64,000 bases of DNA, taken from assembly GCA_018242545.1 (NCBI GenBank), contig JAFEBT010000002.1, positions 4,973 to 68,972 of the forward strand. The letters are read 5' to 3'. Positions 270-59,629 of the stretch are shown here, one piece after another. Each line of letters begins with the position of its first letter. Positions within the stretch are counted from its first letter, which is position 1. The stretch is from Pseudomonadota bacterium (GTDB lineage: Bacteria > Pseudomonadota > Alphaproteobacteria > 16-39-46). The notes beneath the pieces are model-generated. The model was not told the DNA's origin, did not search any database, and was given only the letters and a program-made list of their open reading frames with translations. Both the position numbers and the translations under genes were made by a program.

Positions 270-503
270 TTAAGCTACCTCTATTTCATCTTTATTTGCA
301 GCCTTAGCCATTTGTTCTTTTAAGCTACGAGGTCTCATATCCGACCAATTCTCTTTAATATAAGCAAGACACTCCTCTTTCGTTCCAGTTGTCCCAACTT
401 CACTCCATCCATAAGGAATCTCTTTTCTAACAGGCCATATTGAATACTGATCTTCTATGTTAATAACGACTCTCCATACTTCATTAGAATCTGGTCCCCA
501 CAT
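270..503 (-). CDS. MbtH-like protein (NRPS accessory)
   Basis: 77 aa. Carries the MbtH signature: conserved Trp residues, SIWP and PYGW motifs ([27 protein letters not shown]). Confidence 0.85.
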
Positions 504-717: not shown

Positions 718-2490
718 ATGCACGAGGTTCATGCAAAAGAAGCGCTTTTCTATATTTATAAAATGATTCGACCATTTTATTGGTCTTTTACTATTATGCT
801 CTTAGTTGCAATAGCATGGGCTATTGATTTATCTTTAAGGCCTTATCTTCTTAAAGTTATTTTAGACCGTCTTAACCAATCTCCTTCCCAAGAAGCTTTT
901 AAATATATAGCTTATCCTTTATTAATTTACTTTTTTTTATCATTTTTTCATACAAGTATGTTTCGTCTCTATAATTATTTTGTAGAGATCAAAATGATAC
1001 CTGCTTTGCATAAAAAAATAACAAATTCCATATTTTCTTATATGATAAAGCATGATCATTCTTATTACCAAAATAATTTTTCTGGAAGCTTAGCAAATAA
1101 AATTAATGACTTAAAAAACAGTATACCCGACATCGTACGAATTTTTATTGATCGATTTTTAAGTCATATTTTAGGGCTTGCAGTTGCAATTTTTACTCTT
1201 TGGCATGTGCGAATTGAATTTGCTTTAGCTATGCTTACTTGGACACTTTTATTCATTGGGGTCGCATTTTTTTGTTCAAAAAGAATCCAACATCTTGCAG
1301 ATAAACAGTCAGAGTTAGGATCAACAGTAACTGGAAAACTTGTTGACATATTGTCAAATATACTTTCAGTAAAGTTATTTTCAAGGCAACGCAAAGAAAA
1401 AGAATCTCTTAATGAAACTCTCCAAGAAGCCCTTAAAGCAGAGAGAAAACTCCAATGGTTTTATTTCTGGATGTGGATTTTTTACGGATATTCTTTTCTT
1501 ATAACACAAGGAATATGTCTTTACTTTCTTATAAAAGGACGAGAACAAGGAATAATCTCTATCGGAGATTTTGCGCTTGTTATGAGTCTTAATATCTCCA
1601 TTGTTGATTTCTTGTGGGGATTAATGCAAGAGTTTTCTCAATTTTCTAAACTCTTAGGGGTAACGATACAAGCACTGCGTACGACAACAATGCCTCATAA
1701 AATTAAAGATAGTCCGAAGGCTTTAGAACTTATGGTTACTAAAGGTAAAATTGTCTTTGACAAAGTTCAATTTTATTATAAAGGTGCAGAACCTTTATTT
1801 AATAAGAGTTCTATTACTATCTTTCCTAGTCAAAAAGTTGGACTTGTAGGCTTTTCAGGCAGCGGTAAATCTACTTTTGTAAATTTAATTTTAAGATTAT
1901 TTGATGTTACAGAAGGACGCATTCTTATTGATGATCAAGATATAAAAAATGTGACTCAAGATAGTTTAAGAGAAGCTATCTCTATAATTCCTCAGGATCC
2001 ATCTTTATTCCATCGAACCTTAATGGAAAACATTCGTTACGGAAAATTAGAAGCTTCTGATGAAGAAGTCATAGAGGCTTCTCAACGTGCTCATGCACAT
2101 GAGTTCATATCTAAGCTGCCTTTAAGGTATGACTCTCTTGTTGGTGAAAGAGGCATAAAACTTTCAGGGGGGCAACGTCAACGTATTGCAATGAGTCGGG
2201 CTATTTTAAAAAATGCCCCTATCCTTATTTTAGATGAAGCCACAAGTCAACTTGATTCTGTAACAGAACATGAGATTCAAGAAAGTCTTTGGAATTTAAT
2301 GAAAGAAAAAACGACCATTATTATTGCTCATCGCCTCTCAACTCTTCTTCGTATGGATCGAATTCTTGTTTTTGATCAAGGTAAAATCATTCAGGATGGA
2401 CCACATAAAGAACTCTTAAAAGGAGGTTTCTATAAAACTTTATGGGAGACGCAAATTGGTGGATTTTTGCCAGAGAAAAAAGATTTGTAA
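718..2490 (+). CDS. ABC transporter, fused permease/ATP-binding exporter (MsbA/cyclic-peptide exporter type)
   Basis: 590 aa. N-terminal 6-TM region, then Walker A GFSGSGKST, ABC signature LSGGQRQRIAMSRA, Walker B ILILDEATS and an H-loop (IAHRLS). Confidence 0.9.
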   Translation: MHEVHAKEALFYIYKMIRPFYWSFTIMLLVAIAWAIDLSLRPYLLKVILDRLNQSPSQEAFKYIAYPLLIYFFLSFFHTSMFRLYNYFVEIKMIPALHKKITNSIFSYMIKHDHSYYQNNFSGSLANKINDLKNSIPDIVRIFIDRFLSHILGLAVAIFTLWHVRIEFALAMLTWTLLFIGVAFFCSKRIQHLADKQSELGSTVTGKLVDILSNILSVKLFSRQRKEKESLNETLQEALKAERKLQWFYFWMWIFYGYSFLITQGICLYFLIKGREQGIISIGDFALVMSLNISIVDFLWGLMQEFSQFSKLLGVTIQALRTTTMPHKIKDSPKALELMVTKGKIVFDKVQFYYKGAEPLFNKSSITIFPSQKVGLVGFSGSGKSTFVNLILRLFDVTEGRILIDDQDIKNVTQDSLREAISIIPQDPSLFHRTLMENIRYGKLEASDEEVIEASQRAHAHEFISKLPLRYDSLVGERGIKLSGGQRQRIAMSRAILKNAPILILDEATSQLDSVTEHEIQESLWNLMKEKTTIIIAHRLSTLLRMDRILVFDQGKIIQDGPHKELLKGGFYKTLWETQIGGFLPEKKDL

Positions 2491-2937: not shown

Positions 2938-3681
2938 ATGAATGCCCTTAAAAAGATAAATTTCTCTAAGAATCTTGTAGAATTGTTTACTATTAATCTT
3001 AAAAAGTTAGACTCTTATCTTCCAAAACTCCTAATGTATCTTTCAGAGAAAGAAAAAATTCAAGCAGATAAATTTCAATTTGAACATTTAAAAAGTAGTT
3101 ATGTTGCTTCACATGGACTTCTAAGAATTTTAATTGGAAATTATCTTTCTTGTTCTCCTTCACAAGTTGAATATACACATAATGAGTTTCAAAAACCTTT
3201 ATGCAAAAATAATCAAAACTTATATTTTAATATGTCGCACTCTCATGAATATGCTTGTTATGCCTTTTCTTTTGGTCATGAGGTCGGAGTTGACATTGAA
3301 TTTATGGATAGTACGATTGGAATAGACGATTTATTGCCTTTAATAACAACTCAAGAAGAGCTACTTATTTTCAATACATTCAATAAAAAAGACAAATCTT
3401 ATTTATTTTATAAAACATGGACTATCAAAGAAGCTTTCGTAAAAGCTTTAGGATTTGGATTGTCATGTCCTCTTTCCAATATAGACACAACTATTTTACC
3501 AAGAAAAAAATTCGAAGTTGTGAGGTACAATACAATACGTAAAAAAGAAATAGATAAAGAATGGACTTTTTCTTCTATCGATCTGATTCCTGATTATCTG
3601 GGAGCGGTTGCTGTTAAAAAGAATAACTCTTACATAAATATGAGGTCCCTTGATTCCTTGGACTTCTCTAAACTAAGTTAG
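2938..3681 (+). CDS. 4'-phosphopantetheinyl transferase, Sfp/EntD type
   Basis: 247 aa with PPTase motifs GVDIE and FYKTWTIKEAFVKALG (W/KEA motif). It sits directly beside the MbtH and ABC exporter genes. Confidence 0.8.
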   Translation: MNALKKINFSKNLVELFTINLKKLDSYLPKLLMYLSEKEKIQADKFQFEHLKSSYVASHGLLRILIGNYLSCSPSQVEYTHNEFQKPLCKNNQNLYFNMSHSHEYACYAFSFGHEVGVDIEFMDSTIGIDDLLPLITTQEELLIFNTFNKKDKSYLFYKTWTIKEAFVKALGFGLSCPLSNIDTTILPRKKFEVVRYNTIRKKEIDKEWTFSSIDLIPDYLGAVAVKKNNSYINMRSLDSLDFSKLS

Positions 3682-19568: not shown

Positions 19569-20972
19569 TCAGAATCCCCTTAAAAAATATTTCTTTTCTG
19601 GATCATTATCGTTTCTTTTGATTTCTAGGATGACCCCTTTGTTAAGAAGCTCTATAAGGGATGCCCGCACTTGTCGAGTTGACATACCAATGGAATCTGC
19701 TATTTGCTTTGTTGAAAGGCCAGATGAATCTTCTAATAAATCTCTGATTTTTTGCTCAGTTGAAGAAAGTTTTTCTTCATGAATTTTTTTCTTAAACAAT
19801 GTAACTCGAAAAGATGTTCCAATTTCTTCAAACGTTGGCTTTTGCAAGCCTGCTGATTCACATGCGTCTATAATGCGATGAACTCCGCTTCCCCAACGTT
19901 CAATAAGTTTTAATTCATGAAAAACTCTAGAAATTACTCGATTCCTAATTTTGGACACTCCTGAATAAAAGTTATCGAAAGTCATTCCAAATGGCAAAAG
20001 CCCAGGATTTTCAATTTCAAGTCGGTCATTGTAAAGAGCAATTCTAATAGGAGATCCACCGAGACTATAATCACAATGCAAAAGTGCATTTATCAGGCTT
20101 TCTCTCACTGCAACTTGTGGCAAAGACCATTCTTCTTTGTGTTGCAGATCATTAATATGAATAGAAACGTTTAAATGTTTGCGTATAAACATCATCGCTT
20201 CTGGAATAGCGATCACAAAAGGAACATGGATTTCTTGAGAATCAATAATATGAGCTCTTGTTTCCCCTTGGAAACTACCAGCTTGAATCCACGCATCAGG
20301 TAGGTATCGAGCTTTGTTTTTTGAAAACAAAAGAACTCCACCATAAGTGACAGGACATGATTTTGCAGAATCATGCTCTCTATCTGCAAGAACGCCCATA
20401 GTCATCAGGTTTTCTGTCTTAAGTTTTCGAACAGTGGGAAAAGCACCTTTGACAAGATCCATATCAATATCTTTTATAGAAGACCCAGGAGCCTCTAGCT
20501 CATCAAAGAGTTTGGGACTTTTAGTGCGTCTTAAAGACTCAATCATGAAAGAATCCGCCACTCTATTGGTGGACCCGACACGTACATAAGTTGAAGAGGA
20601 CTCTCCCTTAAGCTTGAAATGGTAAGGACGAGAATTTCCAGGAAATACCTCGATTATCAACAAGTCTTTCCCTTGGTAAGAAATAGTTTCAATATTTGGA
20701 ACAACGAGGGGTTCAATAGAATCATATATAGAAGATGCTAGTTTTTCTTCTGCTTGCTGAACATTCTCAATCCCTTTGATTACTTTAGTTTTATCTTCAA
20801 TTCCCAATACTATTTTTCCACCAGATGTATTAGAAAAAGAGATGATCGTTGTCAGAATTTTTTGAATAGGATCGACTGTTTCCTTGAATTCAAGGACTTT
20901 ACTTTCATTTTGAGTAAGAGTTTTTTCTATATTCATACTCTGAAATTTACTCTGAAGTAACTCTGAAGTCAA
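19569..20972 (-). CDS. ATP-binding putative transcriptional regulator (AlbA_2 divergent-AAA DNA-binding domain + HATPase_c_4/RecG-C-terminal-like + C-terminal winged HTH)
   Basis: 467 aa. The N-terminus (ESKVLEFKETVD...ISFSNTSGGKIVLGIEDKTKVIKGI) matches the AlbA_2 pattern. The C-terminus (LSTKQIADSIGMSTRQVRASLIELLNKGVILE) is an HTH. Confidence 0.75.
   Translation of the reverse strand: MTSELLQSKFQSMNIEKTLTQNESKVLEFKETVDPIQKILTTIISFSNTSGGKIVLGIEDKTKVIKGIENVQQAEEKLASSIYDSIEPLVVPNIETISYQGKDLLIIEVFPGNSRPYHFKLKGESSSTYVRVGSTNRVADSFMIESLRRTKSPKLFDELEAPGSSIKDIDMDLVKGAFPTVRKLKTENLMTMGVLADREHDSAKSCPVTYGGVLLFSKNKARYLPDAWIQAGSFQGETRAHIIDSQEIHVPFVIAIPEAMMFIRKHLNVSIHINDLQHKEEWSLPQVAVRESLINALLHCDYSLGGSPIRIALYNDRLEIENPGLLPFGMTFDNFYSGVSKIRNRVISRVFHELKLIERWGSGVHRIIDACESAGLQKPTFEEIGTSFRVTLFKKKIHEEKLSSTEQKIRDLLEDSSGLSTKQIADSIGMSTRQVRASLIELLNKGVILEIKRNDNDPEKKYFLRGF
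20937..20972. repeat. three tandem 11-13-bp units containing CTCTGAAG at the 5' end (first codons) of the AlbA_2-family gene
   Basis: aCTCTGAAattta CTCTGAAGtaa CTCTGAAGtcaa. This is the same motif and orientation as the block at 19531-19564. Confidence 0.7.
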
Positions 20973-21279
20973 CTTCTTTTAATTCTCGCTGTTTTATGAT
21001 TTTCATGAGTTCTTGGGCATTTAATACCATTTCCCTTTGACCTCCATTTATTCCTGGATAATCTGTAAGAGTAATAACAGCATTATAAATATCTAAACGT
21101 GTAAATTTTTTTGTTTTTAAAACCCATACAAATTCCAAAAGAGTATAAGAGGAAATAAAAGCTTCACCTTTTTTAGAAAATATCTTTAAAAAAATTTTGG
21201 GATTTTTTTGCTTGATTTAAATCATCTTCTAAAAAAGCTTGGGCGAGAATATTCGTACGACACCTATCATCTTAAGTTT
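20973..21279 (-). pseudogene. disrupted ORF (toxin-like remnant) spread over three frames
   Basis: Minus-strand translation gives MIGVVRIFSPKLF* / LEDDLNQAKKSQNFFKDIF* / KKGEAFISSYTLLEFVWVLKTKKFTRLDIYNAVITLTDYPGINGGQREMVLNAQELMKIIKQRELKEVDFRVTSE*. The final piece is track ORF 20947..21138. The whole lies directly downstream of a small antitoxin-like ORF. Confidence 0.25.
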
Positions 21280-21447
21280 TCATTCCATAGTAGATACTGC
21301 TTGGGCAATAGCATCATCAATCTCTTCTATTGACATAGGAGACATCTTTTGATGTTTTCCTTGCCCAAAAAATTCCCTAATGTTTCTTGTTTTTGGATAT
21401 ATTTCTACTATTTTGTCTTTTCTTAAGTTAAGTAAGTTTTGATTCAT
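21280..21447 (-). CDS. small antitoxin-like protein (55 aa)
   Basis: MNQNLLNLRKDKIVEIYPKTRNIREFFGQGKHQKMSPMSIEEIDDAIAQAVSTME, an ATG..TGA ORF. Its size, the FFGqgk...IEEID C-terminus and its position upstream of a broken ORF suggest a VapB/MazE-type antitoxin. Confidence 0.3.
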   Translation of the reverse strand: MNQNLLNLRKDKIVEIYPKTRNIREFFGQGKHQKMSPMSIEEIDDAIAQAVSTME

Positions 21448-22288
21448 GATTTAACCCTAAAGATTCTCTGACATTTCTAGGAATAACAATCTGACCTTTT
21501 CAAGAAACAGTAGCTTTAATCTGCAGAGCATACTTTTAATTAATAATCCATTAATAAAACAAATTAACACAGCTTAATTAAGATTTAAAAGCAATCTCTA
21601 TATCCTTACCACAAAAGGCTATTCCTATCTTTATTATTTTTTTTGACAGCGGGATAAGATTTAAGTTTATCTTCATAATTTTTTGCCTCTATTTGATGGA
21701 ATGGAGTGCACCCTCTGCAGCTTTCTTTAAATTATCTTCTTTTTGTGCAATTTTATATTCTAAAATAAGACCAATCAGATTTTTGAGAAAGGTATTTGTG
21801 GCATGCTAAATCCTTTAATATACCTCATTAACCTCTGTATCTTTTACTTTTCATTAAGTCACTTAAAATGACTTATTGAGGAGAAGATGACGTTGCCTCT
21901 TATAAACGAATAACTTTAAAAAGAAAGTCGCGTTTAGGGAAAAATATACCGTAAAACTTAGAGAATAGGAAAGAAAAGAATTATAAGGGATCAGAGCTGC
22001 TTCAAAGATATATGAGAAAGCATCTAAATTTACTGATTTTTTGAGTTTATAGAACGCACACTACATTTTAAAATGGTTAAGGTAAAATTTATTTTTTTGG
22101 CCCTCTTTAAAAAGAAAATTTAAAAGGTTTTTATTTTTTTATGTTATTTTAACTTGATTTCTCCAAAAAAGAGGTAGAATATAATAATTAATACATAATA
22201 GTTCGGAATATCTTTTATAATATCGTAAACAAAAATGTAAAAGATATAAACAAAGTAGAAACAAACAATAAAAATACTGGGAGCTGCT

Positions 22289-22837
22289 ATGACAGAAAGT
22301 ACCCAACATCTTCTTGAAAAAATTCGTCCACCACGTGTCGAAATTACATACGACGTTGAAATTGGTGATGCCATTATTATGAAACAACTTCCTTTTGTTG
22401 TTGGAATTATGGCTGATCTTTTGGGCGTTCCTTTAAATCCACCCACCAAACTTAAAGACCGAAAATTCATAGAAATTGATTCCGGTAGCTTTAATACTGT
22501 TATGGGAAAAATGGCACCTACGCTTCCTTTGCGCGTTCCAAACGTGCTTACGAATGAGGGAGGAGACCTTAATATACTCCTTACATTCAATACAATGGAT
22601 GATTTTAACCCTATCAATATCGCAGGGCAAGTTCCCGAGCTCAATCAACTTTTGACAGCGCGTCAACATCTTTCTGATCTCTTAACAAAGTTAGACGGAA
22701 ATGATACGTTAGATGGGTATCTCCAGGAAATTATTGCAAGCTCAGCTCTCCAAAAGAGCCTCCAAGGCGAGGTTCAAGCTGAAACCGCACAAGCAGACGC
22801 AAAGCCAGGTGATGTTCAACCAAAATCATCTACTTAA
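22289..22837 (+). CDS. tssB: type VI secretion contractile sheath small subunit TssB (VipA)
   Basis: 182 aa. PRVEITYDVEIGDAIIMKQLPFVVGIMADL...LLTFNTMDDFNPINI is a typical TssB (DUF770) sequence. Confidence 0.9.
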   Translation: MTESTQHLLEKIRPPRVEITYDVEIGDAIIMKQLPFVVGIMADLLGVPLNPPTKLKDRKFIEIDSGSFNTVMGKMAPTLPLRVPNVLTNEGGDLNILLTFNTMDDFNPINIAGQVPELNQLLTARQHLSDLLTKLDGNDTLDGYLQEIIASSALQKSLQGEVQAETAQADAKPGDVQPKSST

Positions 22838-22898
22838 TAAGTTACATTCGTCATTTAAATAAAGTAAAAAATCTAAACGAGACGGGGAGTACGAAAGA

Positions 22899-24380
22899 AT
22901 GGCCGATCCAACACAAGCTCCAGGGACAACAACTTCAGCACCCGCTGGAAATTTTTTAGACCAAATGATCCAAACTGGTAAACTCGCCAGGGATCCTTCT
23001 CAAGTGCCGTATGCACGTCAGATGGTTCAAGAGTTCCTTAATCAAATCCAAGAACAAGAACCCGTGTCAACAACTGATTGTGTTGCGTTTATAAATCAAC
23101 GTATCCAAGCTATTGACACTCTTTTGTCCAATCAGATTAATTTAATTCTACATGATCCACAGTTCTCAAAGTTAGAAGGTTCTTGGCGCGGTCTTAATTA
23201 TCTCGTCATGAATACTTTTACAGGAACAGAATTAAAGTTACGTGTTCTTCATGCAACAAAAGAAGAACTTCTTGATGATCTTCAAAAAGCCGTTGAATTC
23301 GACCAAAGTCAATTGTTTAAAAAGATTTATGAAGAAGAATACGGTACTTTTGGTGGGAATCCTTATTCTTGTTTAGTTGGAGACTATTATTTTGGACCCA
23401 ATCCTCAAGATATGGCCTTTTTAAGCAAAATGTCTGGCGTCGCTGCTGCTGCTTTTGCACCTTTCATTGCAGCTGCAGATCCAACAATGTTCAACTTGGA
23501 TACATTTACGAATCTTGGTGTTCCGCGCGACTTAGCAAGTATCTTTGATAGTGTTGAATATGCAGAATGGAATGCTTTGCGCCAAACAGAAGATTCTCGA
23601 TATATTGTTTTGACACTCCCACGCGTGCTCATGCGTCTTCCTTATGGTCCCAATACTGTTCCTGTTGACGGGATGAATTTTGTGGAAGATGTTACAGGAA
23701 CCGATAATTCAAAATTCTGTTGGGGAAATACGGCTTATGCCTATGGGCAACGTATTACAAACGCTTTCTTCCTTTATAACTGGACAGCTGCCATACGTGG
23801 CGTTGAAGGGGGCGGGCTTGTGGAAGGTCTTCCTGCTTATACCTTCAAAACAACAGAAGGTGATATTGCTCTGAAATGCCCAACTGAAATCGCAATTACA
23901 GATCGGCGCGAAAAAGAATTAAGTGACTTAGGCTTTGTCGCACTTTGTTATTGTAAAGGAACAAATAAAGCTGCCTTCTTTGGAGCACAAACGATCCAAC
24001 AACCGATTGTTTATAACACAGCAGAAGCAAACTCAAATGCTCAACTTTCTGCACGAATCACCTATATGCTTGCAGCTTGCCGTTTTGCCCATTATATCAA
24101 GTCCATTATGCGGGATAAAATTGGCAGTTTCATGACAAAAGATAATGTTGAAAATTATCTTCAAACATGGATCGCAAATTATGTGCTTTTGAATGACAAT
24201 GCACCCGAAGAGTTAAAGGCTGAATATCCTTTAAGAGAAGCACGCGTCGATGTTTTTGACGTTCCTGGAAGTCCAGGCAACTACAAAGCAACCGTCTTCT
24301 TAAGACCTCACTTCCAACTCGAAGAACTGACAGCTTCCTTAAGGCTCGTTGCAACCCTTCCACCTCCTGCAGGAGGTTGA
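22899..24380 (+). CDS. tssC: type VI secretion contractile sheath large subunit TssC (VipB)
   Basis: 493 aa with conserved TssC blocks (LDQMIQT..., GNPYSCLVGDYYFG, LPRVLMRLPYGP, ARITYMLAACRFAHYIK). It sits directly downstream of tssB. Confidence 0.9.
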   Translation: MADPTQAPGTTTSAPAGNFLDQMIQTGKLARDPSQVPYARQMVQEFLNQIQEQEPVSTTDCVAFINQRIQAIDTLLSNQINLILHDPQFSKLEGSWRGLNYLVMNTFTGTELKLRVLHATKEELLDDLQKAVEFDQSQLFKKIYEEEYGTFGGNPYSCLVGDYYFGPNPQDMAFLSKMSGVAAAAFAPFIAAADPTMFNLDTFTNLGVPRDLASIFDSVEYAEWNALRQTEDSRYIVLTLPRVLMRLPYGPNTVPVDGMNFVEDVTGTDNSKFCWGNTAYAYGQRITNAFFLYNWTAAIRGVEGGGLVEGLPAYTFKTTEGDIALKCPTEIAITDRREKELSDLGFVALCYCKGTNKAAFFGAQTIQQPIVYNTAEANSNAQLSARITYMLAACRFAHYIKSIMRDKIGSFMTKDNVENYLQTWIANYVLLNDNAPEELKAEYPLREARVDVFDVPGSPGNYKATVFLRPHFQLEELTASLRLVATLPPPAGG

Positions 24381-24462
24381 TCCTCACCTTTAAAAAAATT
24401 CTAAAAAATAAAAAATGCTCACCAACTTATAGATTTTCTAAAATCGATGCGGGAGAAATACC

Positions 24463-24960
24463 ATGGGTAATAATGTTAACATTGTCTTACAGTCCTCACA
24501 AGCAAGTCTGCTTGCCGGAAATGTTGCAACAACAGGATATACAAATGCGGTCCGGGTAGAAAGCTTTCCTGCTGTTATTATTAAAAATCCTTTTCGTCCA
24601 ACACGCTCTGGAAATCGTAATCTTACAAACCCAGGAATATCACCGATTACAGTTATTGCACCTTTTGGAAGCGTGACACCCATGGCGTTTCAAGCTCTCT
24701 GTAATGGAAACAACGTTGGAACAATTACAATTACAGAACTTATCTCTGATGGCAAAACAGCTCAAACCCAACGTGTTTTAGTTCTAACCAATGTTTATCT
24801 TATTGAATGGGCTATGCAAGGAGATCGGGATGGAGGGTTATGCTCTTTTACGATGACATTTGACAGTCTAAAGCAGACACGTTCCTCCATAGGTCAAAAT
24901 CAAAAAGCAGCTGGAAAAACCTCAGCCTCAACAAACATTAATACCTCCGCCACGGGTTAA
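24463..24960 (+). CDS. hcp: Hcp-like tube protein, divergent paralog
   Basis: 165 aa. Its blocks align with P. aeruginosa Hcp1: SPITVIAPFGSVTPMAFQALCNGNNVGTITITEL with QDLSFTKYIDKSTPNLMMACSSGKHYPQAKLTIRK; VLVLTNVYLIEWAMQGD with YLIITLKEVLVSS; SFTMTFDSLKQT with NVTLNFAQVQVDY. Confidence 0.55.
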   Translation: MGNNVNIVLQSSQASLLAGNVATTGYTNAVRVESFPAVIIKNPFRPTRSGNRNLTNPGISPITVIAPFGSVTPMAFQALCNGNNVGTITITELISDGKTAQTQRVLVLTNVYLIEWAMQGDRDGGLCSFTMTFDSLKQTRSSIGQNQKAAGKTSASTNINTSATG

Positions 24961-25001
24961 AGAGGACAAACAAAAATAAGAAATATATTCATGAAAACCA
25001 T

Positions 25002-25637
25002 ATGGAGACTACCATGGCTACCTTAACTGTTCCAAATCCCTCTTTTCTTTTAAATCAAACACTTACTGAAGCAAGTAATTTTGCTTCCACACTTGAAGAT
25101 CCTGATTTACCAGCTGCCATTAAGAAAGTTATCGCGCTTTCCAATAAAGATGAAGGCATTAACGAAGCACCCTCGATTCTTATGACGATTGCCAATATTC
25201 CCGGCGTATCAAAGGCAGGATCGATTTCAAAAGCGATTGAAGTTTATGGGTTTTCGTTTGCTGCCCGCAGAAAATCAGTTGAAGGAAAAGATGGGCAGCT
25301 TCAAGCAAGTGGGAATGTTATTGTTGAAGATCTCATTGTTGTTTGTCCAGATGACGCTTATGTTGAAACAGGCATTCAAAGTATTTGTACCGGAGCGAAT
25401 GTTGGAAACGTCTCGCTTTACTTTCTGAGAAATATTGGAACAACGGCACAAATTGACTCTCAAATTGACCTCACCAATTGTCGTCTCTCTTCTTTCTATG
25501 AAAACCAATATGTTTCCACAATGGGGTTTGGATTTGATACAATAAAAGTAACTTATTTTCCTGTGGCAGATACGGGGACAGCAAGTGGTAAAGTTTCAGC
25601 TGGATTTGATCTTACAACGAATGCCCCTGTCAAATAG
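25002..25637 (+). CDS. hcp: Hcp (TssD) tube protein with ~50-aa N-terminal extension
   Basis: 211 aa. KAIEVYGFSFAARR, EDLIVVCPDDAYVETGIQSICTGANVGNVSLYFLR and DTIKVTYFPVADTG...KVSAGFDLTTN align with the Hcp1 core blocks. Confidence 0.7.
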   Translation: METTMATLTVPNPSFLLNQTLTEASNFASTLEDPDLPAAIKKVIALSNKDEGINEAPSILMTIANIPGVSKAGSISKAIEVYGFSFAARRKSVEGKDGQLQASGNVIVEDLIVVCPDDAYVETGIQSICTGANVGNVSLYFLRNIGTTAQIDSQIDLTNCRLSSFYENQYVSTMGFGFDTIKVTYFPVADTGTASGKVSAGFDLTTNAPVK

Positions 25638-25651
25638 AATTTTGTTCTTCC

Positions 25652-26185
25652 ATGACATCAGATGTTATTCCTTTAAAAAAAAATACGGATCCTCTTTTTA
25701 AAAAATGGAAGAAAGAGGGCAGTTTTGTCCCTTTATTTGTAAAACTTCAAGATCTTAATACGGATCAAAAAGAAGAAGCACCTCCTTTAAGATATTTCTC
25801 AAAAGAAGAGCTTCAAGCTTCTGTTATTACAAATATTTCTGATTTATTAAATACACGTGTTACCCTACCCGCTCATGTTTTTAATGCAATTATTCAAAAT
25901 GATCAATTTGAAGGATATCCAGAGCTTTATGGTCTTCCTGATTTTTCCTATTTTGATGCGAGCAATCAAGCCACTTGGAGTTATTATACCTTTCTAATTA
26001 AGACGGCCATTGAACGCAATGAATCTCGATTAACAAATGTTAGTGTTGTTCTTGAAAAATTTATGCCCCCTTTTCAAACGCTACAAGCTACAATTAGCGG
26101 AGATTTGATTATAAATGAAATGACGGAACCTCTTTCTTTCAATGTTACTTTAACATCTTCCCATACACAACGATCACCTTCATGA
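25652..26185 (+). CDS. tssE: type VI secretion baseplate protein TssE (gp25-like)
   Basis: 177 aa with the GPW_gp25/TssE signature ISDLLNTRV. Its stop overlaps the tssF start (ATGA). Confidence 0.8.
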   Translation: MTSDVIPLKKNTDPLFKKWKKEGSFVPLFVKLQDLNTDQKEEAPPLRYFSKEELQASVITNISDLLNTRVTLPAHVFNAIIQNDQFEGYPELYGLPDFSYFDASNQATWSYYTFLIKTAIERNESRLTNVSVVLEKFMPPFQTLQATISGDLIINEMTEPLSFNVTLTSSHTQRSPS

Positions 26186-27996
26186 AAAACTCTTTTTTAA
26201 ATTTATTAACCTATTATGAACGGGAAAGAAGCTATCTCAAAAACATGGGGGCTATTTTTGCTGCTCAATATCCTAAAGTAGCCAGACGGCTAGATATTGG
26301 GCACGATGAAATTTCAGATCCCCATGTCAGCAGGCTTATCGATTCGTTTGCATTTTTAACAGCATCCTTGCAACAAGATATTGACAATGAATTTCCAAGA
26401 ATTTCAACGGCATTGCTCGAAGCTCTTTATCCTCAATTTTCAAACCCTATTCCTTCTTTCAGCATTGCACAATTCCAAGTCGATCCTTCCAAAGGAAAAT
26501 TAACTTCAGGATTCTCAGTTCCAAAAGAGACCTCTGTCTTTGCCTATGCAAGCGAAGGGGTTACATGTCAATTTCAAACAGGATATGATGTTGAATTATG
26601 GCCTATTGAAGTCTCAGAAGCTTCTCTCGTCAAAACAAATATTTATAATTTTCCAAATTTTTTTACAAATGATCCTTATTGTCTTCGAATTCGGCTCACA
26701 ACCCTCGAGGAGCCTTTAAAAACGCTTGGATGCACGTCCTTACGTTTTTATATCAAAGGAACAAATGCCTTTCAAACAAGTCTTTATGAATCTCTTTTTT
26801 TAGGAGAGAAACCTTTAGGAGTTGCTCTTAAAGAAGGAGATCAAGTTAAAATTCTTCCAAAAAACTCCTTAAATCCCGTCGGTTTTTCACAAGAAGAGAC
26901 TGTTCTTCCTCTTTCAAGCCGCACACATCCAGCCTATGGTCTTCTTCTTGAATATTATTATTGCACAGACAAATTTTTCTTTTTTGATATTTCAAATCTC
27001 GATATGTCACTTGCAGAAACAAATATAGATCTTCTGATCCCTGTATCAAATGTAGAAATACTTTTAAAACTAAGTCTTTCAAAAGACAATTTTTGTCTAG
27101 GATGTACCCCTATTATTAACATTTTTAAAAAAATTTCAGAGCCTTTTAAATTATCACAATACACAACAGAGCATCGCCTTGTTGCAGATCAAAGACGTGA
27201 ACTTACCACTGAAATTCACTCCCTTATTTCTGTTCAAGGCATCGCGCCAGATGGGCTTACAACACAAACCATTCCTCCTTATTTTTCTTTTGATTATGAA
27301 GCGTCAACAACCTCTCAAGAATTTTTTTGGTATGCACGACGTACTCCAAGCACAAGATCTGGCCTTCCAGGAACCGACATTGAACTTTCTTTCGTAAATC
27401 TTGATTTTAATCCCGCGACGCCATCTCGTTTTGAAACGATTTTTGCTTATACTTTGTGCACGAATCGTTCTCTTGCTCCAGAACTTCCTGCAGGAACTCT
27501 TTTAGAAGTAAATGAATCTTTTCCCATTCACAACGTTGTTTGTCTAAAATCTCCAACATCCCCTGTTTACCCGCCAACAGAGGGAGCAACACTCTGGGGT
27601 TTAATTTCGCAACTTTCTTTAAATAAACTTTCCCTTTCAAATTCTCCTCAAAGCATAGAAAGACTTCAGGGAATTCTTAATCTTTATACTAAATTTGGGA
27701 ATGCTGAAAGTAATTCTGAAATAGAATCTCTCGTTGGAATGGCATGCTCTTATAATGTTGAAAGAATGGGAAATGAAGCATGGCGAAATTTTGCACGTGG
27801 AATCTCAATTACATTAACCCTTGATGAAAGTAAAACAGGAGGAAAATCTCCTTTTCTCTTTACAGCCGTTTTAAATCAATTTTTTGGTCTTTATGTTTCA
27901 TTAAATTCTTTCACACAACTTAATATTCAGAAACTTAATCAAGAAGGATATTGGAAACAATGGGCGCCTCTCTCCGGAACACAACCCCTTCTTTAG
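26182..27996 (+). CDS. tssF: type VI secretion baseplate protein TssF
   Basis: 604 aa. The N-terminus (LLTYYERERSYLKNMGAIFAAQYPKVARRLDIGHDEISDPHVSRLIDSFAFLTASL) matches the TssF N-terminal consensus. Confidence 0.85.
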   Translation: MKNSFLNLLTYYERERSYLKNMGAIFAAQYPKVARRLDIGHDEISDPHVSRLIDSFAFLTASLQQDIDNEFPRISTALLEALYPQFSNPIPSFSIAQFQVDPSKGKLTSGFSVPKETSVFAYASEGVTCQFQTGYDVELWPIEVSEASLVKTNIYNFPNFFTNDPYCLRIRLTTLEEPLKTLGCTSLRFYIKGTNAFQTSLYESLFLGEKPLGVALKEGDQVKILPKNSLNPVGFSQEETVLPLSSRTHPAYGLLLEYYYCTDKFFFFDISNLDMSLAETNIDLLIPVSNVEILLKLSLSKDNFCLGCTPIINIFKKISEPFKLSQYTTEHRLVADQRRELTTEIHSLISVQGIAPDGLTTQTIPPYFSFDYEASTTSQEFFWYARRTPSTRSGLPGTDIELSFVNLDFNPATPSRFETIFAYTLCTNRSLAPELPAGTLLEVNESFPIHNVVCLKSPTSPVYPPTEGATLWGLISQLSLNKLSLSNSPQSIERLQGILNLYTKFGNAESNSEIESLVGMACSYNVERMGNEAWRNFARGISITLTLDESKTGGKSPFLFTAVLNQFFGLYVSLNSFTQLNIQKLNQEGYWKQWAPLSGTQPLL

Positions 27997-28991
27997 AAGA
28001 ACAAATTTATAAAGAAGCGTATGCTTTTGAATTTGTGCAAATGGTTCATATCTTAAATCATCTTACACCAGGAACCATATCGCCTGGAGAGACAGCTGAT
28101 CCTCAAAAAGAATCTGTTTTTTTTAAATCAAATGCTTCTTTTGAATTCACATCAAGTGACCTCTCGTCGCTTATTCCACGTGAGAATGCTCCGCCTATTT
28201 TAAACGTCAATTTTTTAGGCATCGCAGGTGCGCAAGGACCCCTGCCGGCTCCTTATACACAAATTCTTTTAGATCGAATGCGTTCAAGAGATTACACCTT
28301 TCGGGATTTCTTAGATATTTTTAACCATCGGCTTATCTCTCTTCTTTATCGAATCCGTAAAAAATATAGAACAGAACTTTCTGATGTAAAAGCTTCTGAT
28401 TCAACAATCGGAAAAATGCTCCGTACTTTTTTAGGATTTGGATTTAAAAATACACTTTTCGAAAATCAGTTTAGTCTTTCAGATTCTGCTCTTATTGGAA
28501 TGGCTGGTTTATTCTGGGAAGCTTATCCTTCTAAAGCAGGACTTCAAAATGTTATAAAACATTATTTTAAGGTCCCCACTCAGGTTAAAGATTTTAGAGG
28601 AAGATGGGTATCTTTTAAAGATTCTCAACAAACACGCTTAGGAACACTTGCTGGAAAATTTAATGCTCTTGGAGAAAACAGCATCCTCGGTAAATCCGAA
28701 TGGGATAAAATTGGAGCTATTACACTTGTTCTTGGACCTCTTTCTTTTTCTCAATTCACTTCTTTTTTTCGAGGACAAAACGCTTTTCAAAATCTTTGTG
28801 ATTTAACGACGCTTTATGTAAGATTCGGAATTACTTTTGATTTAAATCTTATCCTTAAAAAAGAAGAAGTTCCGGATCTTCTTCTTGGAAAATCTTCTTA
28901 TCTTGGATGGAGTACTTGGCTTAAATTACAACCCTTTACCAAGGATGATCAACAAGTTTACATTCATCCCTTAAATTCAGATGTTTTATAA
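27951..28991 (+). CDS. tssG: type VI secretion baseplate protein TssG
   Basis: 346 aa. The N-terminal block (EAYAFEFVQMVHILNHL) and downstream position match TssG. It overlaps the tssF 3' end. Confidence 0.8.
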   Translation: METMGASLRNTTPSLEEQIYKEAYAFEFVQMVHILNHLTPGTISPGETADPQKESVFFKSNASFEFTSSDLSSLIPRENAPPILNVNFLGIAGAQGPLPAPYTQILLDRMRSRDYTFRDFLDIFNHRLISLLYRIRKKYRTELSDVKASDSTIGKMLRTFLGFGFKNTLFENQFSLSDSALIGMAGLFWEAYPSKAGLQNVIKHYFKVPTQVKDFRGRWVSFKDSQQTRLGTLAGKFNALGENSILGKSEWDKIGAITLVLGPLSFSQFTSFFRGQNAFQNLCDLTTLYVRFGITFDLNLILKKEEVPDLLLGKSSYLGWSTWLKLQPFTKDDQQVYIHPLNSDVL

Positions 28992-29393
28992 AAAGATATA
29001 AGTCTCTTTCCTTCTTTATTTAAATATATTTAATATTTGCTTAAGATATTTTGAAAGATTATTCAAATTAATTAAAATCAAAAAATAAAATTTTTCATTA
29101 GAACCATCAATAAGTTAATTAATTTCGAAGCTTAGATTTATTATTAAAGAAAAAATATTTTCAGTTTATAGAGTAAAAATTTTTGCATTTATCCTCTTTT
29201 TAAGCTAAAGTTAAGAATTTTACGTATCCTAAAATTCTTTTTCTGAGGGTTGTAACATAGAAACCAGTAATTTCATGTAAAGAGTATAGTATATAATTTT
29301 TTATATTTTTGGTTGTTGAAATTTTATTAATGAATCCATATATTAAAGTCATTAATACACTTTTTTTAAATTAATTTGGATAATTTCAAAATT

Positions 29394-55736: not shown

Positions 55737-56012
55737 TTAACTTAATTTACGCTGAAATTTTTTATAGACATTATCATCATTTCTTAACCCTATAAGAACA
55801 AGCATAATCATGTCTTTTTCGACTTTGTAAATAATTCGATATTCTCCAGCATCTATACGATAATACTCAGAATATCCTATAAGGGATTTTGAATCATGCG
55901 GATAAGGATCGAACAAAAGCGAAAGAACCTTACGTGCAACCTGCCTATATAGCTTAGCATCTAAAGTTTCCCAAAAATCCAAAGCATCTTTTGTTAAGTT
56001 AAGCTTAAACAT
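55737..56012 (-). CDS. type II toxin, RelE/ParE (YoeB/Txe-like) family
   Basis: 91 aa with a RelE-fold C-terminus (YRIIYKVEKDMIMLVLIGLRNDDNVYKK). Overlaps the upstream antitoxin by 8 nt. Confidence 0.8.
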   Translation of the reverse strand: MFKLNLTKDALDFWETLDAKLYRQVARKVLSLLFDPYPHDSKSLIGYSEYYRIDAGEYRIIYKVEKDMIMLVLIGLRNDDNVYKKFQRKLS

Positions 56013-56253
56013 TAATAAGCTTCTCTATAATTTTTGCGCTTTCTTCTTCTCCAAGATACCCTTTTTTTTCAGCCTGACGTGCACGCATTCCCCAATAGGC
56101 ATCTTCACAGGCTTCTAGACGATTAAGTTCTTCTTTTGAAATCATAACGATTGCCTCATGTCCAGCTTTACTAATGACAACGGGCTCAGATATAGCTATT
56201 GAAAGATATTTTCCAAAATTTGTTTTGGCTTCTGTTGCAGAAACAGTCTTCAT
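56005..56253 (-). CDS. type II antitoxin, Phd/YefM family
   Basis: 82 aa. N-terminus MKTVSATEAKTNFGKYLSIAISEPVVISKAGHEAIVMISKEELNRLE is the canonical YefM pattern. Confidence 0.8.
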   Translation of the reverse strand: MKTVSATEAKTNFGKYLSIAISEPVVISKAGHEAIVMISKEELNRLEACEDAYWGMRARQAEKKGYLGEEESAKIIEKLINV

Positions 56254-59341: not shown

Positions 59342-59629
59342 CTAAACGCTCATTGTTTTATGTCTGTTATCACTCATCTTCTTAATTTCTTCAAAAACTT
59401 GAGGTCCAGAGATGCTTTCTCCATTCTGAAGCTGTCGTAAGCCCGCTTCAATCTCATGATTAAGTTTTTGTATTTGTTGCTGAAAGAGCATATCTCTTTC
59501 CATAAGAAGCCTTATTCCTTCACGGACAACCTCACTGGCAGAGTTATAAAGCCCAGTTTCTATTTTTTTTTGAATAAATTTTTCCAGCGTATTATTTAAT
59601 GAGATATTCATTCGATTTTTTCCTTTCAC
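59342..59629 (-). CDS. ParD/CopG-family antitoxin
   Basis: MNISLNNTLEKFIQKKIETGLYNSASEVVREGIRLLMERD fits the ParD consensus (SASEVVRaGLRLLee). The likely start is the internal Met at 59611. Confidence 0.7.
   Translation of the reverse strand: MKGKNRMNISLNNTLEKFIQKKIETGLYNSASEVVREGIRLLMERDMLFQQQIQKLNHEIEAGLRQLQNGESISGPQVFEEIKKMSDNRHKTMSV

What the first reader, a model, noticed from the sequence alone, without database searches (positions are those of the whole stretch)
22289..28991. Type VI secretion sheath-tube-baseplate block without membrane complex, spike, ClpV or TssK in the window
tssB-tssC-hcp-hcp-tssE-tssF-tssG lie contiguous and co-oriented with overlapping stop/start codons (tssE/tssF ATGA; tssF/tssG overlap), so they are one operon. 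None of tssA, clpV (tssH), vgrG (tssI), tssJ, tssK, tssL or tssM occurs anywhere in the remaining 57 kb. Either the system is split across the chromosome, or this is a reduced contractile apparatus lacking the canonical membrane complex. A T6SS of any kind is uncommon in low-GC obligate-intracellular-type alphaproteobacteria. The ~800-bp non-coding, AT-rich region upstream (21450-22288) is a candidate regulated promoter.
Basis: partly seen in the sequence, partly recalled or inferred. Interest (0 to 1): 0.7.

Follow-up and report, generated by a model that had tools for sequence, protein, structure and literature searches.

The report
One fragment of a scattered T6SS
This is a real and well-maintained operon for the sheath, tube and baseplate of a type VI secretion system in an uncultured Holosporales-type alphaproteobacterium, but having the remaining parts elsewhere in the genome is the normal, already published arrangement for this bacterial group, so it is ordinary.

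Summary
Window 22289-28991 (+) encodes tssB, tssC, two Hcp paralogs, tssE, tssF and tssG, tightly packed. No other T6SS gene is detectable in the 64 kb by Pfam on all ORFs of 60 aa or more, tblastn, or custom profile HMMs in six frames.

The source is an NCBI MAG whose nearest named TssC relatives are Holosporales (Paracaedibacter, Finniella). In that group the T6SS is reported as nearly universal and its core genes as scattered over four or more loci (PMC8163844, PMC11909080).

Fetched relatives show stepwise fragmentation of an ancestral K-L-M-A-B-C-hcp-E-F-G-clpV-vgrG cluster:
- one keeps clpV-vgrG after tssG;
- one has vgrG 5 kb upstream;
- closer relatives have lost tssEFG from beside hcp;
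- tssA and tssM sit alone among housekeeping genes.

All seven genes are under purifying selection (dN/dS 0.04-0.27). The region downstream of tssG differs even in a near-identical strain.

The most likely reading is a canonical-type T6SS encoded at several loci. I could not show that the source genome itself holds tssK/L/M/A or vgrG. Novelty: new member of a known kind. Interest is low.

The parts
22147..22199 (+). Conserved upstream block, about 90-140 nt before the tssB start, containing TATAAT at 22180-22185. Candidate promoter or 5' leader.
   Evidence: 89% identical over 53 nt to the equivalent position in L001, while the rest of the intergenic region is not alignable. The promoter scan as a whole is not above shuffles. 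Inference only.
22289..22837 (+). tssB (small sheath subunit, 182 aa)
   Evidence: PF05591 6.8e-50; TIGR03358 166.9 bits against cut-off 97.25. NCBI MBS0184861.1.
22899..24380 (+). tssC (large sheath subunit, 493 aa). The N-terminal helix region NFLDQMIQTGKLA is retained.
   Evidence: PF05943 plus PF18945; TIGR03355 667 bits against 271.5. N-terminal alignment with lineages that have clpV. dN/dS 0.04 against L001.
24463..24960 (+). hcp paralog 1 (tube protein, 165 aa)
   Evidence: PF05638 30.5 bits against 23.5. Profile of orthologs hits PDB Hcp3 3he1 at 1.9e-4. Orthologous group in L001, L002 and L006. dN/dS 0.135.
25002..25637 (+). hcp paralog 2 (211 aa; Hcp domain preceded by an N-terminal extension of about 55 aa)
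   Evidence: PF05638 40.3 bits, residues 61-185. Profile hits P. aeruginosa Hcp1 1y12 at 8e-5. hhalign against paralog 1 gives 96.5% probability. dN/dS 0.116.
25652..26185 (+). tssE (gp25-like baseplate wedge, 177 aa)
   Evidence: PF04965 4e-10; TIGR03357 68.1 bits against 53.2.
26182..27996 (+). tssF (baseplate wedge, 604 aa). Its start overlaps the tssE stop (ATGA).
   Evidence: PF05947 1.4e-171; TIGR03359 558.9 bits against 260.3. Junction.
27951..28991 (+). tssG (baseplate wedge, 346 aa from TTG 27951; alternative ATG at 27960). Overlaps tssF by 37-46 nt.
   Evidence: PF06996 1.2e-79; TIGR03347 271.4 bits against 143.3. The same kind of overlap is seen in L001 and L002.
28992..29148 (.). 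End of the conserved block, i.e. a rearrangement breakpoint. Similarity to the near-identical strain L094 stops about 157 nt after the tssG stop codon.
   Evidence: blastn of L094 against the window: 90% identity over 27370-29148 and nothing beyond. L094 continues with a VapC/Phd pair and transposase fragments. L006 and canonical clusters have clpV-vgrG at this position.

Best explanation
The block is the central sheath-tube-baseplate operon of a canonical-type (T6SS-i) type VI secretion system in an uncultured Holosporales-type alphaproteobacterium. It keeps the ancestral core order tssB-tssC-hcp-tssE-tssF-tssG, with hcp duplicated.

The genes that flank this core in intact clusters are tssK-tssL-tssM-tssA upstream and clpV-vgrG downstream. 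Genome rearrangement has separated them from the core, and they are most likely encoded at other loci in the same genome.

Inferred mechanism, from established T6SS biology:
1. TssE/F/G wedges, together with TssK and VgrG, form a baseplate docked on a TssJ/L/M-type envelope complex.
2. Hcp rings (here possibly from two paralogs) polymerise into a tube inside a TssB/C sheath.
3. Sheath contraction expels Hcp, VgrG and effectors, probably into the eukaryotic host cell.
4. The contracted sheath is recycled by ClpV or another Clp-type ATPase.

Shown here: gene identities, order, purifying selection, absence of the other parts from the window, and dispersal in relatives.
Inferred: presence of the remaining parts in this particular genome, single-operon transcription, and the target.
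For: 1. Five of the seven genes match curated T6SS-i equivalog models above cut-off. Both Hcp paralogs pass Pfam's threshold and reach solved Hcp structures.
2. The nearest intact clusters (Bordetella L080, Nitrospina L016) read tssK-L-M-A-B-C-hcp-E-F-G-clpV-vgrG. Identities were confirmed by NCBIfam, with TssK, TssA, TssE, ClpV and VgrG above cut-off and TssL, TssM and Hcp as best hits below cut-off. The window block is exactly the middle of that order.
3. Relatives form a fragmentation series:
   - L006 (TssC 68%): B-C-hcp-hcp-E-F-G-clpV-vgrG, with no K-L-M-A upstream.
   - L002 (72%): the seven-gene block, with vgrG 5 kb upstream and polA between.
   - L001 (90%) and L094 (TssF 96%): the same seven-gene block.
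   - L091-L093 (80-82%): only B-C-hcp-hcp, followed by housekeeping genes.
   - About a dozen other Holosporales-type loci: tssBC(-hcp) without tssEFG.
   - tssA solitary in L084, L085, L087, L089 and L090, and a TssM gene alone in L086.
4. The literature reports that T6SS core genes lie at four or more loci in Bodocaedibacteraceae, Paracaedibacteraceae and Caedimonadaceae, that those genomes encode tssK/L/M/A and vgrG, and that the genes are transcribed (PMC8163844). It also reports the T6SS as conserved in almost all Holosporales (PMC11909080).
5. dN/dS of 0.04-0.27 for all seven genes against L001 means the apparatus is maintained.
6. The TssC N-terminal helix region used for ClpV recruitment (PMC5048182) is conserved between lineages with and without an adjacent clpV.
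Against: - No protein of the source MAG other than those in the window could be examined. The contig is not indexed.
- The TssA search returned nothing from the source MAG. The last protein search was lost to an apparent length filter.
- Accession checks found nothing in the MBS018xxxx range.
- The Holosporales affiliation rests on T6SS proteins and on names of nearest relatives, not on a marker-gene phylogeny.
- The review calls the Holosporales T6SS 'non-standard'. ClpV is not in the published Bodocaedibacter gene list, so some canonical parts may really be missing.
- dS is close to saturation (1.2-2.2), so the dN/dS values are approximate.
Confidence: 0.85

Rival explanations
1. A truly reduced contractile apparatus. 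This lineage has lost the TssJ/L/M membrane complex (and TssK, ClpV), and the sheath-tube-baseplate module works without envelope anchoring, as in extracellular contractile injection systems or the Amoebophilus T6SS-iv.
For: No membrane-complex, TssK, TssA, ClpV, VgrG or PAAR gene in 64 kb by any method. No direct evidence for them in the source genome. The review calls the Holosporales T6SS 'non-standard' (PMC11909080).
Against: - The proteins are T6SS-i equivalogs, not phage-type or eCIS sheath and baseplate proteins.
- Sister families with the same scattered layout do encode tssK/L/M/A and vgrG (PMC8163844).
- A TssM gene was seen in a Holosporales-type locus (L086) and vgrG in the two nearest genomes with enough context (L002, L006).
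- Absence from 64 kb says little when scattering is the rule. In L091-L093 even tssEFG is absent from beside tssBC-hcp.
- To my knowledge no T6SS-i working without TssM has been described.
Confidence: 0.08
2. A decaying remnant. The rest of the system was lost and these seven genes are on their way to becoming pseudogenes.
For: Reduced, host-associated genomes lose systems piecemeal. Mobile-element and toxin-antitoxin debris lies next to the block in a sister strain.
Against: - All seven reading frames are intact and full length against their family profiles.
- dN/dS is 0.04-0.27 over a divergence with dS above 1.
- The block is conserved from 96% down to 68% identical relatives.
Confidence: 0.03
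3. A canonical system in which the missing genes lie immediately outside the window on the same contig, i.e. an ordinary contiguous or nearly contiguous cluster cut by the window edge.
For: The source contig is 73,784 bp, so about 9.8 kb lies outside the window.
Against: The block is flanked by 22 kb and 35 kb of housekeeping and unrelated genes inside the window. Anything outside is at least that far away, which is still a split arrangement. About 9.8 kb cannot hold tssK-L-M-A plus clpV plus vgrG, which take roughly 12-13 kb in L080.
Confidence: 0.04

Closest known systems
Dispersed T6SS of Holosporales families (Ca. Bodocaedibacter vickermanii, Paracaedibacteraceae, Caedimonadaceae; PMC8163844, reviewed in PMC11909080)
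   Same: T6SS-i-type proteins in low-GC, host-associated alphaproteobacteria. Core genes are not in one cluster. There is a tssB-tssC-hcp block and the Hcp proteins are divergent. TssC is 62-70% identical to named Holosporales sequences.
   Different: - Here tssE-F-G are still fused to tssB-C-hcp in one seven-gene operon, whereas the published layout has [tssB-tssC-hcp] and [tssG-tssF] as separate blocks.
- Two Hcp paralogs are clearly present, whereas the review speaks of an apparent lack of the tube gene.
- In several relatives tssA and tssM are solitary rather than in a tssK-L-M-A block.
Intact T6SS-i clusters with the order tssK-L-M-A-B-C-hcp-E-F-G-clpV-vgrG (Bordetella L080, Nitrospina L016). 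The P. aeruginosa H1-T6SS has the same tssA-B-C-hcp-E-F-G-clpV-vgrG core (from memory, not tested).
   Same: Identical internal order and orientation of tssB, tssC, hcp, tssE, tssF and tssG. TssC is 60-67% and TssF 42-44% identical.
   Different: The window lacks the flanking tssK-L-M-A and clpV-vgrG, and hcp is duplicated.
Francisella T6SS-ii
   Same: An intracellular bacterium's T6SS that has no dedicated ClpV and uses ClpB for sheath recycling (from memory). This is a possible analogy if this lineage lacks clpV.
   Different: The protein families differ. The Francisella-type TssF/IglH model scores 14.9 bits against a cut-off of 75.
T6SS-iv of Amoebophilus and extracellular contractile injection systems
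   Same: Contractile sheath-tube-baseplate machines in symbionts that work without a TssJ/L/M membrane complex.
   Different: Those use phage-type single-chain sheath and Afp/PVC-type baseplate proteins. Here the sheath is the two-subunit TssB/TssC type and the wedge is TssE/F/G, all matching T6SS-i equivalogs.

Membership tests
T6SS-i (canonical proteobacterial type VI secretion system) | Two-subunit contractile sheath TssB/TssC | tested here: met
   TIGR03358 at 166.9 bits (cut-off 97.25) and TIGR03355 at 667.1 bits (cut-off 271.5).
T6SS-i (canonical proteobacterial type VI secretion system) | Hcp (TssD) tube protein | tested here: met
   Both ORFs pass Pfam PF05638 (30.5 and 40.3 bits against 23.5). 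Profiles hit solved Hcp structures at about 1e-4. No NCBIfam Hcp model is matched, so they are divergent members.
T6SS-i (canonical proteobacterial type VI secretion system) | Baseplate wedge TssE/TssF/TssG | tested here: met
   TIGR03357, TIGR03359 and TIGR03347 all above cut-off.
T6SS-i (canonical proteobacterial type VI secretion system) | Membrane complex TssL/TssM (and TssJ) encoded in the genome | not testable with these tools
   Absent from the window. The rest of the source genome could not be reached. Present in sister families according to PMC8163844, and a TssM gene was seen in L086.
T6SS-i (canonical proteobacterial type VI secretion system) | TssK, TssA and the VgrG spike encoded in the genome | not testable with these tools
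   Absent from the window. VgrG is present near the block in L002 and L006. tssA is present in Holosporales-type loci.
T6SS-i (canonical proteobacterial type VI secretion system) | ClpV (TssH) sheath-recycling ATPase | not testable with these tools
   Absent from the window. Present directly after tssG in L006. Not in the published Bodocaedibacter gene list (PMC8163844). The TssC N-terminal helix region is retained.
Holosporales-type dispersed T6SS (PMC8163844) | Core genes distributed over several loci rather than one cluster | tested here: met
   The block is flanked by 22 kb and 35 kb without any other T6SS gene. Relatives show solitary tssA and tssM and a displaced vgrG.
Holosporales-type dispersed T6SS (PMC8163844) | Published block structure with [tssB-tssC-hcp] separate from [tssG-tssF] | tested here: not met
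   Here and in L001, L002, L006 and L094, tssE-F-G directly follow hcp. The published split is seen in L091-L093 and in about 12 other loci. This is a layout variant, not a different system.
Holosporales-type dispersed T6SS (PMC8163844) | Organism belongs to Holosporales | tested here: inconclusive
   NCBI labels the MAG only 'Proteobacteria bacterium'. Nearest named TssB/TssC relatives are Alphaproteobacteria bacterium 16-39-46, Ca. Paracaedibacter, Ca. Finniella and Holosporales MAGs. No marker-gene phylogeny was possible.
T6SS-iv / extracellular contractile injection systems (no membrane complex) | Phage-type single-chain sheath and Afp/PVC-type tube and baseplate proteins | tested here: not met
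   No such Pfam families were hit. The sheath is TssB plus TssC and the wedge is TssE/F/G.
T6SS-ii (Francisella pathogenicity island type) | Igl-type components (e.g. the IglH/TssF exception model NF041246) | tested here: not met
   NF041246 scores 14.9 bits against a cut-off of 75, while the canonical TssF model scores 558.9 bits.

The most novel reading that the evidence does not exclude
This lineage runs a pared-down T6SS-i that truly lacks a dedicated ClpV and perhaps TssJ or other envelope parts, and builds its tube from two anciently diverged, co-maintained Hcp paralogs, one carrying an N-terminal extension of about 55 residues. That would make it a structurally distinct host-directed variant rather than a merely scattered standard system.
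Probability: 0.12. Interest if true: 0.55.

Novelty: new member of a known kind. Interest (0 to 1): 0.15.

Why it matters
It matters little beyond correct annotation. It adds an uncharacterised MAG lineage to the Holosporales-type bacteria that keep a T6SS, and shows that this lineage retains an intermediate, less fragmented gene layout.

The set of relatives gives a clear picture of how one ancestral T6SS cluster was broken up repeatedly and independently while staying under selection. That supports the published view that this system is central to the host-associated lifestyle of these bacteria.

The conserved pair of divergent Hcp genes corrects the impression that the tube gene is missing in this group. 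It would be the most interesting point to follow up experimentally.

Tried and rejected
1. Exact look-ups of the window's TssC, of P0001 and of the Finniella TssC in the contig index found nothing on record. The source contig could not be extended.
It was useful for synteny only.
3. A search with the Holosporales-type TssA from L034 gave 54 hits and none from the source MAG. TssA is too divergent for the word-based prefilter.
4. The last protein search used a chimeric query (VgrG of L002 joined to the partial TssM of L086). All 120 listed hits were 971 aa or longer (0.55 x query length), which points to a length filter. Normal-length VgrGs were excluded and no TssM appeared. This was a wasted search and should not be repeated.
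5. Accession checks of NCBI-sourced VgrG and TssA hits found none in the MBS018xxxx range.
6. The metagenome scan with TssF, meant to find relocated tssEFG blocks in the L091-like relatives, returned only 3 loci and could not test that idea. It did yield the near-identical strain L094.
7. I considered that the ORFs downstream of tssG (o702, o780, o533) might be divergent core parts or conserved effectors. This was rejected:
   - they have no family hits;
   - they are absent from all relatives, including the 96%-identical strain;
   - o780 and o533 carry Sec signal peptides.
8. I considered that the unknown 454-468 aa gene following solitary tssA in L084 and L087 might be a divergent TssK. It gave only coiled-coil-type noise in Pfam.
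9. Consensus promoter and terminator scans of the block were not above shuffled controls.
10. Rfam found only one tRNA in the window.
11. Structure prediction was not used.
Full report
**Observation**

The seven ORFs are present at the reported coordinates on the + strand. Pfam and NCBIfam identify them as follows:

| Gene | Coordinates | Evidence |
|---|---|---|
| tssB | 22289-22837 | TIGR03358, 166.9 bits (cut-off 97) |
| tssC | 22899-24380 | TIGR03355, 667 bits (cut-off 271) |
| hcp paralog 1 | 24463-24960 | PF05638, 30.5 bits (cut-off 23.5) |
| hcp paralog 2 | 25002-25637 | PF05638, 40.3 bits (cut-off 23.5) |
| tssE | 25652-26185 | TIGR03357, 68 bits (cut-off 53) |
| tssF | 26182-27996 | TIGR03359, 559 bits (cut-off 260) |
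| tssG | 27951-28991 | TIGR03347, 271 bits (cut-off 143) |

Gene spacing is 61, 82, 41 and 14 nt, followed by a 4-nt ATGA overlap (tssE/tssF) and a 37-46-nt overlap (tssF/tssG). Terminator-like hairpins inside the block are no more frequent than in shuffled sequence. A single operon is therefore plausible, but it has not been shown.

**Absence of other T6SS genes in the window**

- Every other ORF of 120 aa or more was scanned against Pfam. They are housekeeping or unrelated genes: fabD/G/F with acpP, mltG, gmk, secB, rpsI/rplM, corC, rmuC, uvrD, prmA, pfk, cobT, der, transporters and regulators.
- All remaining ORFs of 60 aa or more gave only toxin-antitoxin, MbtH, ACP, SnoaL and DUF465 hits. 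None matched PAAR, TssJ or Fha.
- tblastn with TssK/L/M/A, ClpV and VgrG from the two nearest intact clusters gave nothing better than E = 0.28.
- Profile HMMs that I built from 26-55 canonical sequences per family gave no six-frame hit at E <= 1.

**Source and relatives**

The window's proteins are NCBI entries MBS0184861-MBS0184871 from a MAG labelled 'Proteobacteria bacterium', with locus tags JSS34_xxxxx on a 73,784-bp contig. PGAP already names these genes as T6SS components.

TssC has unnamed metagenomic relatives at 80-94% identity. Below that there is a large group at about 66-72% identity. Its named members are Alphaproteobacteria and Holosporales MAGs, Ca. Paracaedibacter and Ca. Finniella inopinata. 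The 90% cluster of TssB includes 'Alphaproteobacteria bacterium 16-39-46'. I could not run a marker-gene phylogeny, so the Holosporales-type label rests on these proteins.

**What is already known**

[quoted passage not shown] It also shows that they are transcribed.
- PMC11909080 describes the T6SS as conserved in almost all sequenced Holosporales, including the smallest genomes and excepting Holospora. It calls the system probably non-standard because some components seem to be missing.
- PMC9992710 and bioRxiv 10.1101/2025.10.03.678719 say the same in brief.

A partial cluster in a 64-kb window is the expected picture.

**Evidence from fetched loci**

The nearest intact clusters among the 80 loci returned by the genome scan are a Bordetella locus (L080) and a Nitrospina locus (L016). 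Both read tssK-tssL-tssM-tssA-tssB-tssC-hcp-tssE-tssF-tssG-clpV-vgrG. The window block is the exact middle of that order.

Relatives fall into a series:

| Locus | TssC identity to window | Layout |
|---|---|---|
| L006 | 68% | B-C-hcp-hcp-E-F-G-clpV-vgrG; upstream K-L-M-A half absent |
| L002 (GCA_018401675.1) | 72% | seven-gene block; vgrG 5 kb upstream, beyond polA |
| L001 | 90% | seven-gene block next to secB, as in the window |
| L094 | TssF 96%, TssG 94% | same tssF-tssG end of the block (3.9-kb contig) |
| L091-L093 | 80-82% | only B-C-hcp-hcp, then housekeeping genes |
| about 12 other Holosporales-type loci | 59-66% | tssBC(-hcp) without tssEFG |

In addition, tssA is solitary among housekeeping genes in five loci (L084, L085, L087, L089, L090), and L086 has a TssM gene 6 kb from tssA on the other strand.

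L091-L093 are closer to the window than L002 and L006, yet they are more fragmented. The break after hcp2 must therefore have arisen independently. Scattering is recurrent and tolerated.

**Functional constraint**

Against L001, all seven genes show dN/dS of 0.04-0.27. dS is 1.2-2.2, close to saturation, so the ratios are approximate. Together with intact full-length matches to the family profiles, this rules out a decaying remnant.

**The Hcp pair**

The two paralogs form separate orthologous groups across the window, L001, L002 and L006, so the duplication predates the divergence of these lineages. Other Holosporales-type loci (L019, L028) also carry two copies.

- The paralogs are related to each other (hhalign probability 96.5%).
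- Each reaches solved Hcp structures at the profile level: 1y12 at 8e-5 and 3he1 at 1.9e-4.
- Paralog 2 has an N-terminal extension of about 55 residues.

The tube gene is therefore divergent rather than absent. This refines the review's remark about an apparent lack of it.

**Flanks**

*Upstream.* Relative to L001, the window has an inserted Schlafen/AlbA-HATPase-wHTH gene and two small ORFs between secB and tssB. The 841-nt AT-rich stretch has no promoter signal above background. It does share a 53-nt block containing a TATAAT with L001. That is the only support for a promoter, and it says nothing about regulation.

*Downstream.* Similarity to the near-identical strain L094 ends about 157 nt after tssG. 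L094 continues with a VapC/Phd pair and transposase fragments. The window instead has o702, followed by two paralogous signal-peptide proteins (o780 and o533, 41% identical) and a third signal-peptide protein on the other strand. None of these occurs in any relative. The site where clpV-vgrG once sat is a rearrangement hotspot. These ORFs are not conserved T6SS parts.

**Mechanism**

From established T6SS biology:
1. TssE/F/G wedges, with TssK and VgrG, form the baseplate on a TssJ/L/M complex.
2. Hcp polymerises inside a TssB/C sheath.
3. Contraction fires the tube.
4. A Clp-type ATPase recycles the sheath.

The TssC N-terminal helix region through which ClpV is recruited (PMC5048182) is conserved between lineages with and without an adjacent clpV. 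This is compatible with recycling by a ClpV or ClpB encoded elsewhere.

- Shown: gene identities, order, selection, absence of other parts from the window, and dispersal in relatives.
- Inferred: presence of the other parts in this genome, co-transcription, and a eukaryotic host target.

**Limits**

I could not examine any part of the source genome outside the window. One protein search was lost to a chimeric-query mistake. The 'reduced apparatus' reading therefore keeps a small probability, about 0.08.

**Verdict**

This is an ordinary fragment of a dispersed, Holosporales-type T6SS-i. It is a new member of a known kind, with a slightly less fragmented layout than the published one. Interest is 0.15.

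Noticed in passing
window 24463-25637; also L001, L002, L006, L019, L028, L091-L093: Two tandem, strongly diverged Hcp paralogs are conserved as separate orthologous groups across the clade, both under purifying selection. Paralog 2 carries an N-terminal extension of about 55 aa. The Holosporales review speaks of an apparent lack of the tube gene.
   Followed up: partly
window 32022-34364 and 34647-36248 (+); 36387-37910 (-): o780 and o533 are paralogs (41% identical, with internal repeats and near-identical N-termini MKSSL.RFALISLLSLSAG) carrying Sec signal peptides. o507 on the opposite strand also has a signal peptide. None has a Pfam family match or a homolog in any fetched relative. They look like lineage-specific exported proteins, possibly host-interaction factors.
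   Followed up: partly
window 29517-31625 (+): A 702-aa ORF lies 525 nt after tssG. It has no signal peptide and only a sub-threshold HicA-toxin-like match near the C-terminus (19.4 bits against cut-off 27). It is absent from L001 and from the 96%-identical strain L094. Whether it is a T6SS cargo is unknown.
   Followed up: partly
window 19569-21447 (-): A Schlafen/AlbA_2 plus HATPase_c_4 plus winged-helix protein (467 aa) and two small ORFs lie between secB and tssB. In L001, secB directly precedes the tssB upstream region. This looks like an insertion, possibly defence- or regulator-related.
   Followed up: no
L094 1749-3943: In a near-identical strain, the sequence right after tssG carries a VapC (PIN)/Phd toxin-antitoxin pair and fragments of two transposases instead of the window's o702. 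The end of tssG is a strain-level rearrangement hotspot.
   Followed up: partly
window 55737-56253 (-) and 59342-59629 (-): Type II toxin-antitoxin genes: a ParE toxin with a Phd/YefM antitoxin, and a ParD antitoxin. Toxin-antitoxin systems were highlighted in the related Bodo endosymbiont (PMC8163844).
   Followed up: no
window 270-503 (-), 718-2490 (+), 2938-3681 (+): An MbtH-like protein, an ABC exporter and a 4'-phosphopantetheinyl transferase lie together at the window edge. This hints at a non-ribosomal peptide or siderophore-type cluster just outside the window, which would be unexpected in a reduced symbiont genome.
   Followed up: no
L084 10001-12546; L087 10001-12502: In two Holosporales-type lineages a solitary tssA sits after dapF and is followed by a conserved 454-468 aa coiled-coil-rich protein with no family match. 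It could be an unrecognised T6SS accessory component.
   Followed up: partly
tool behaviour: the search for homologous proteins listed only hits of at least 0.55 x the query length, so concatenated queries silently exclude normal-length homologs.
   Followed up: no
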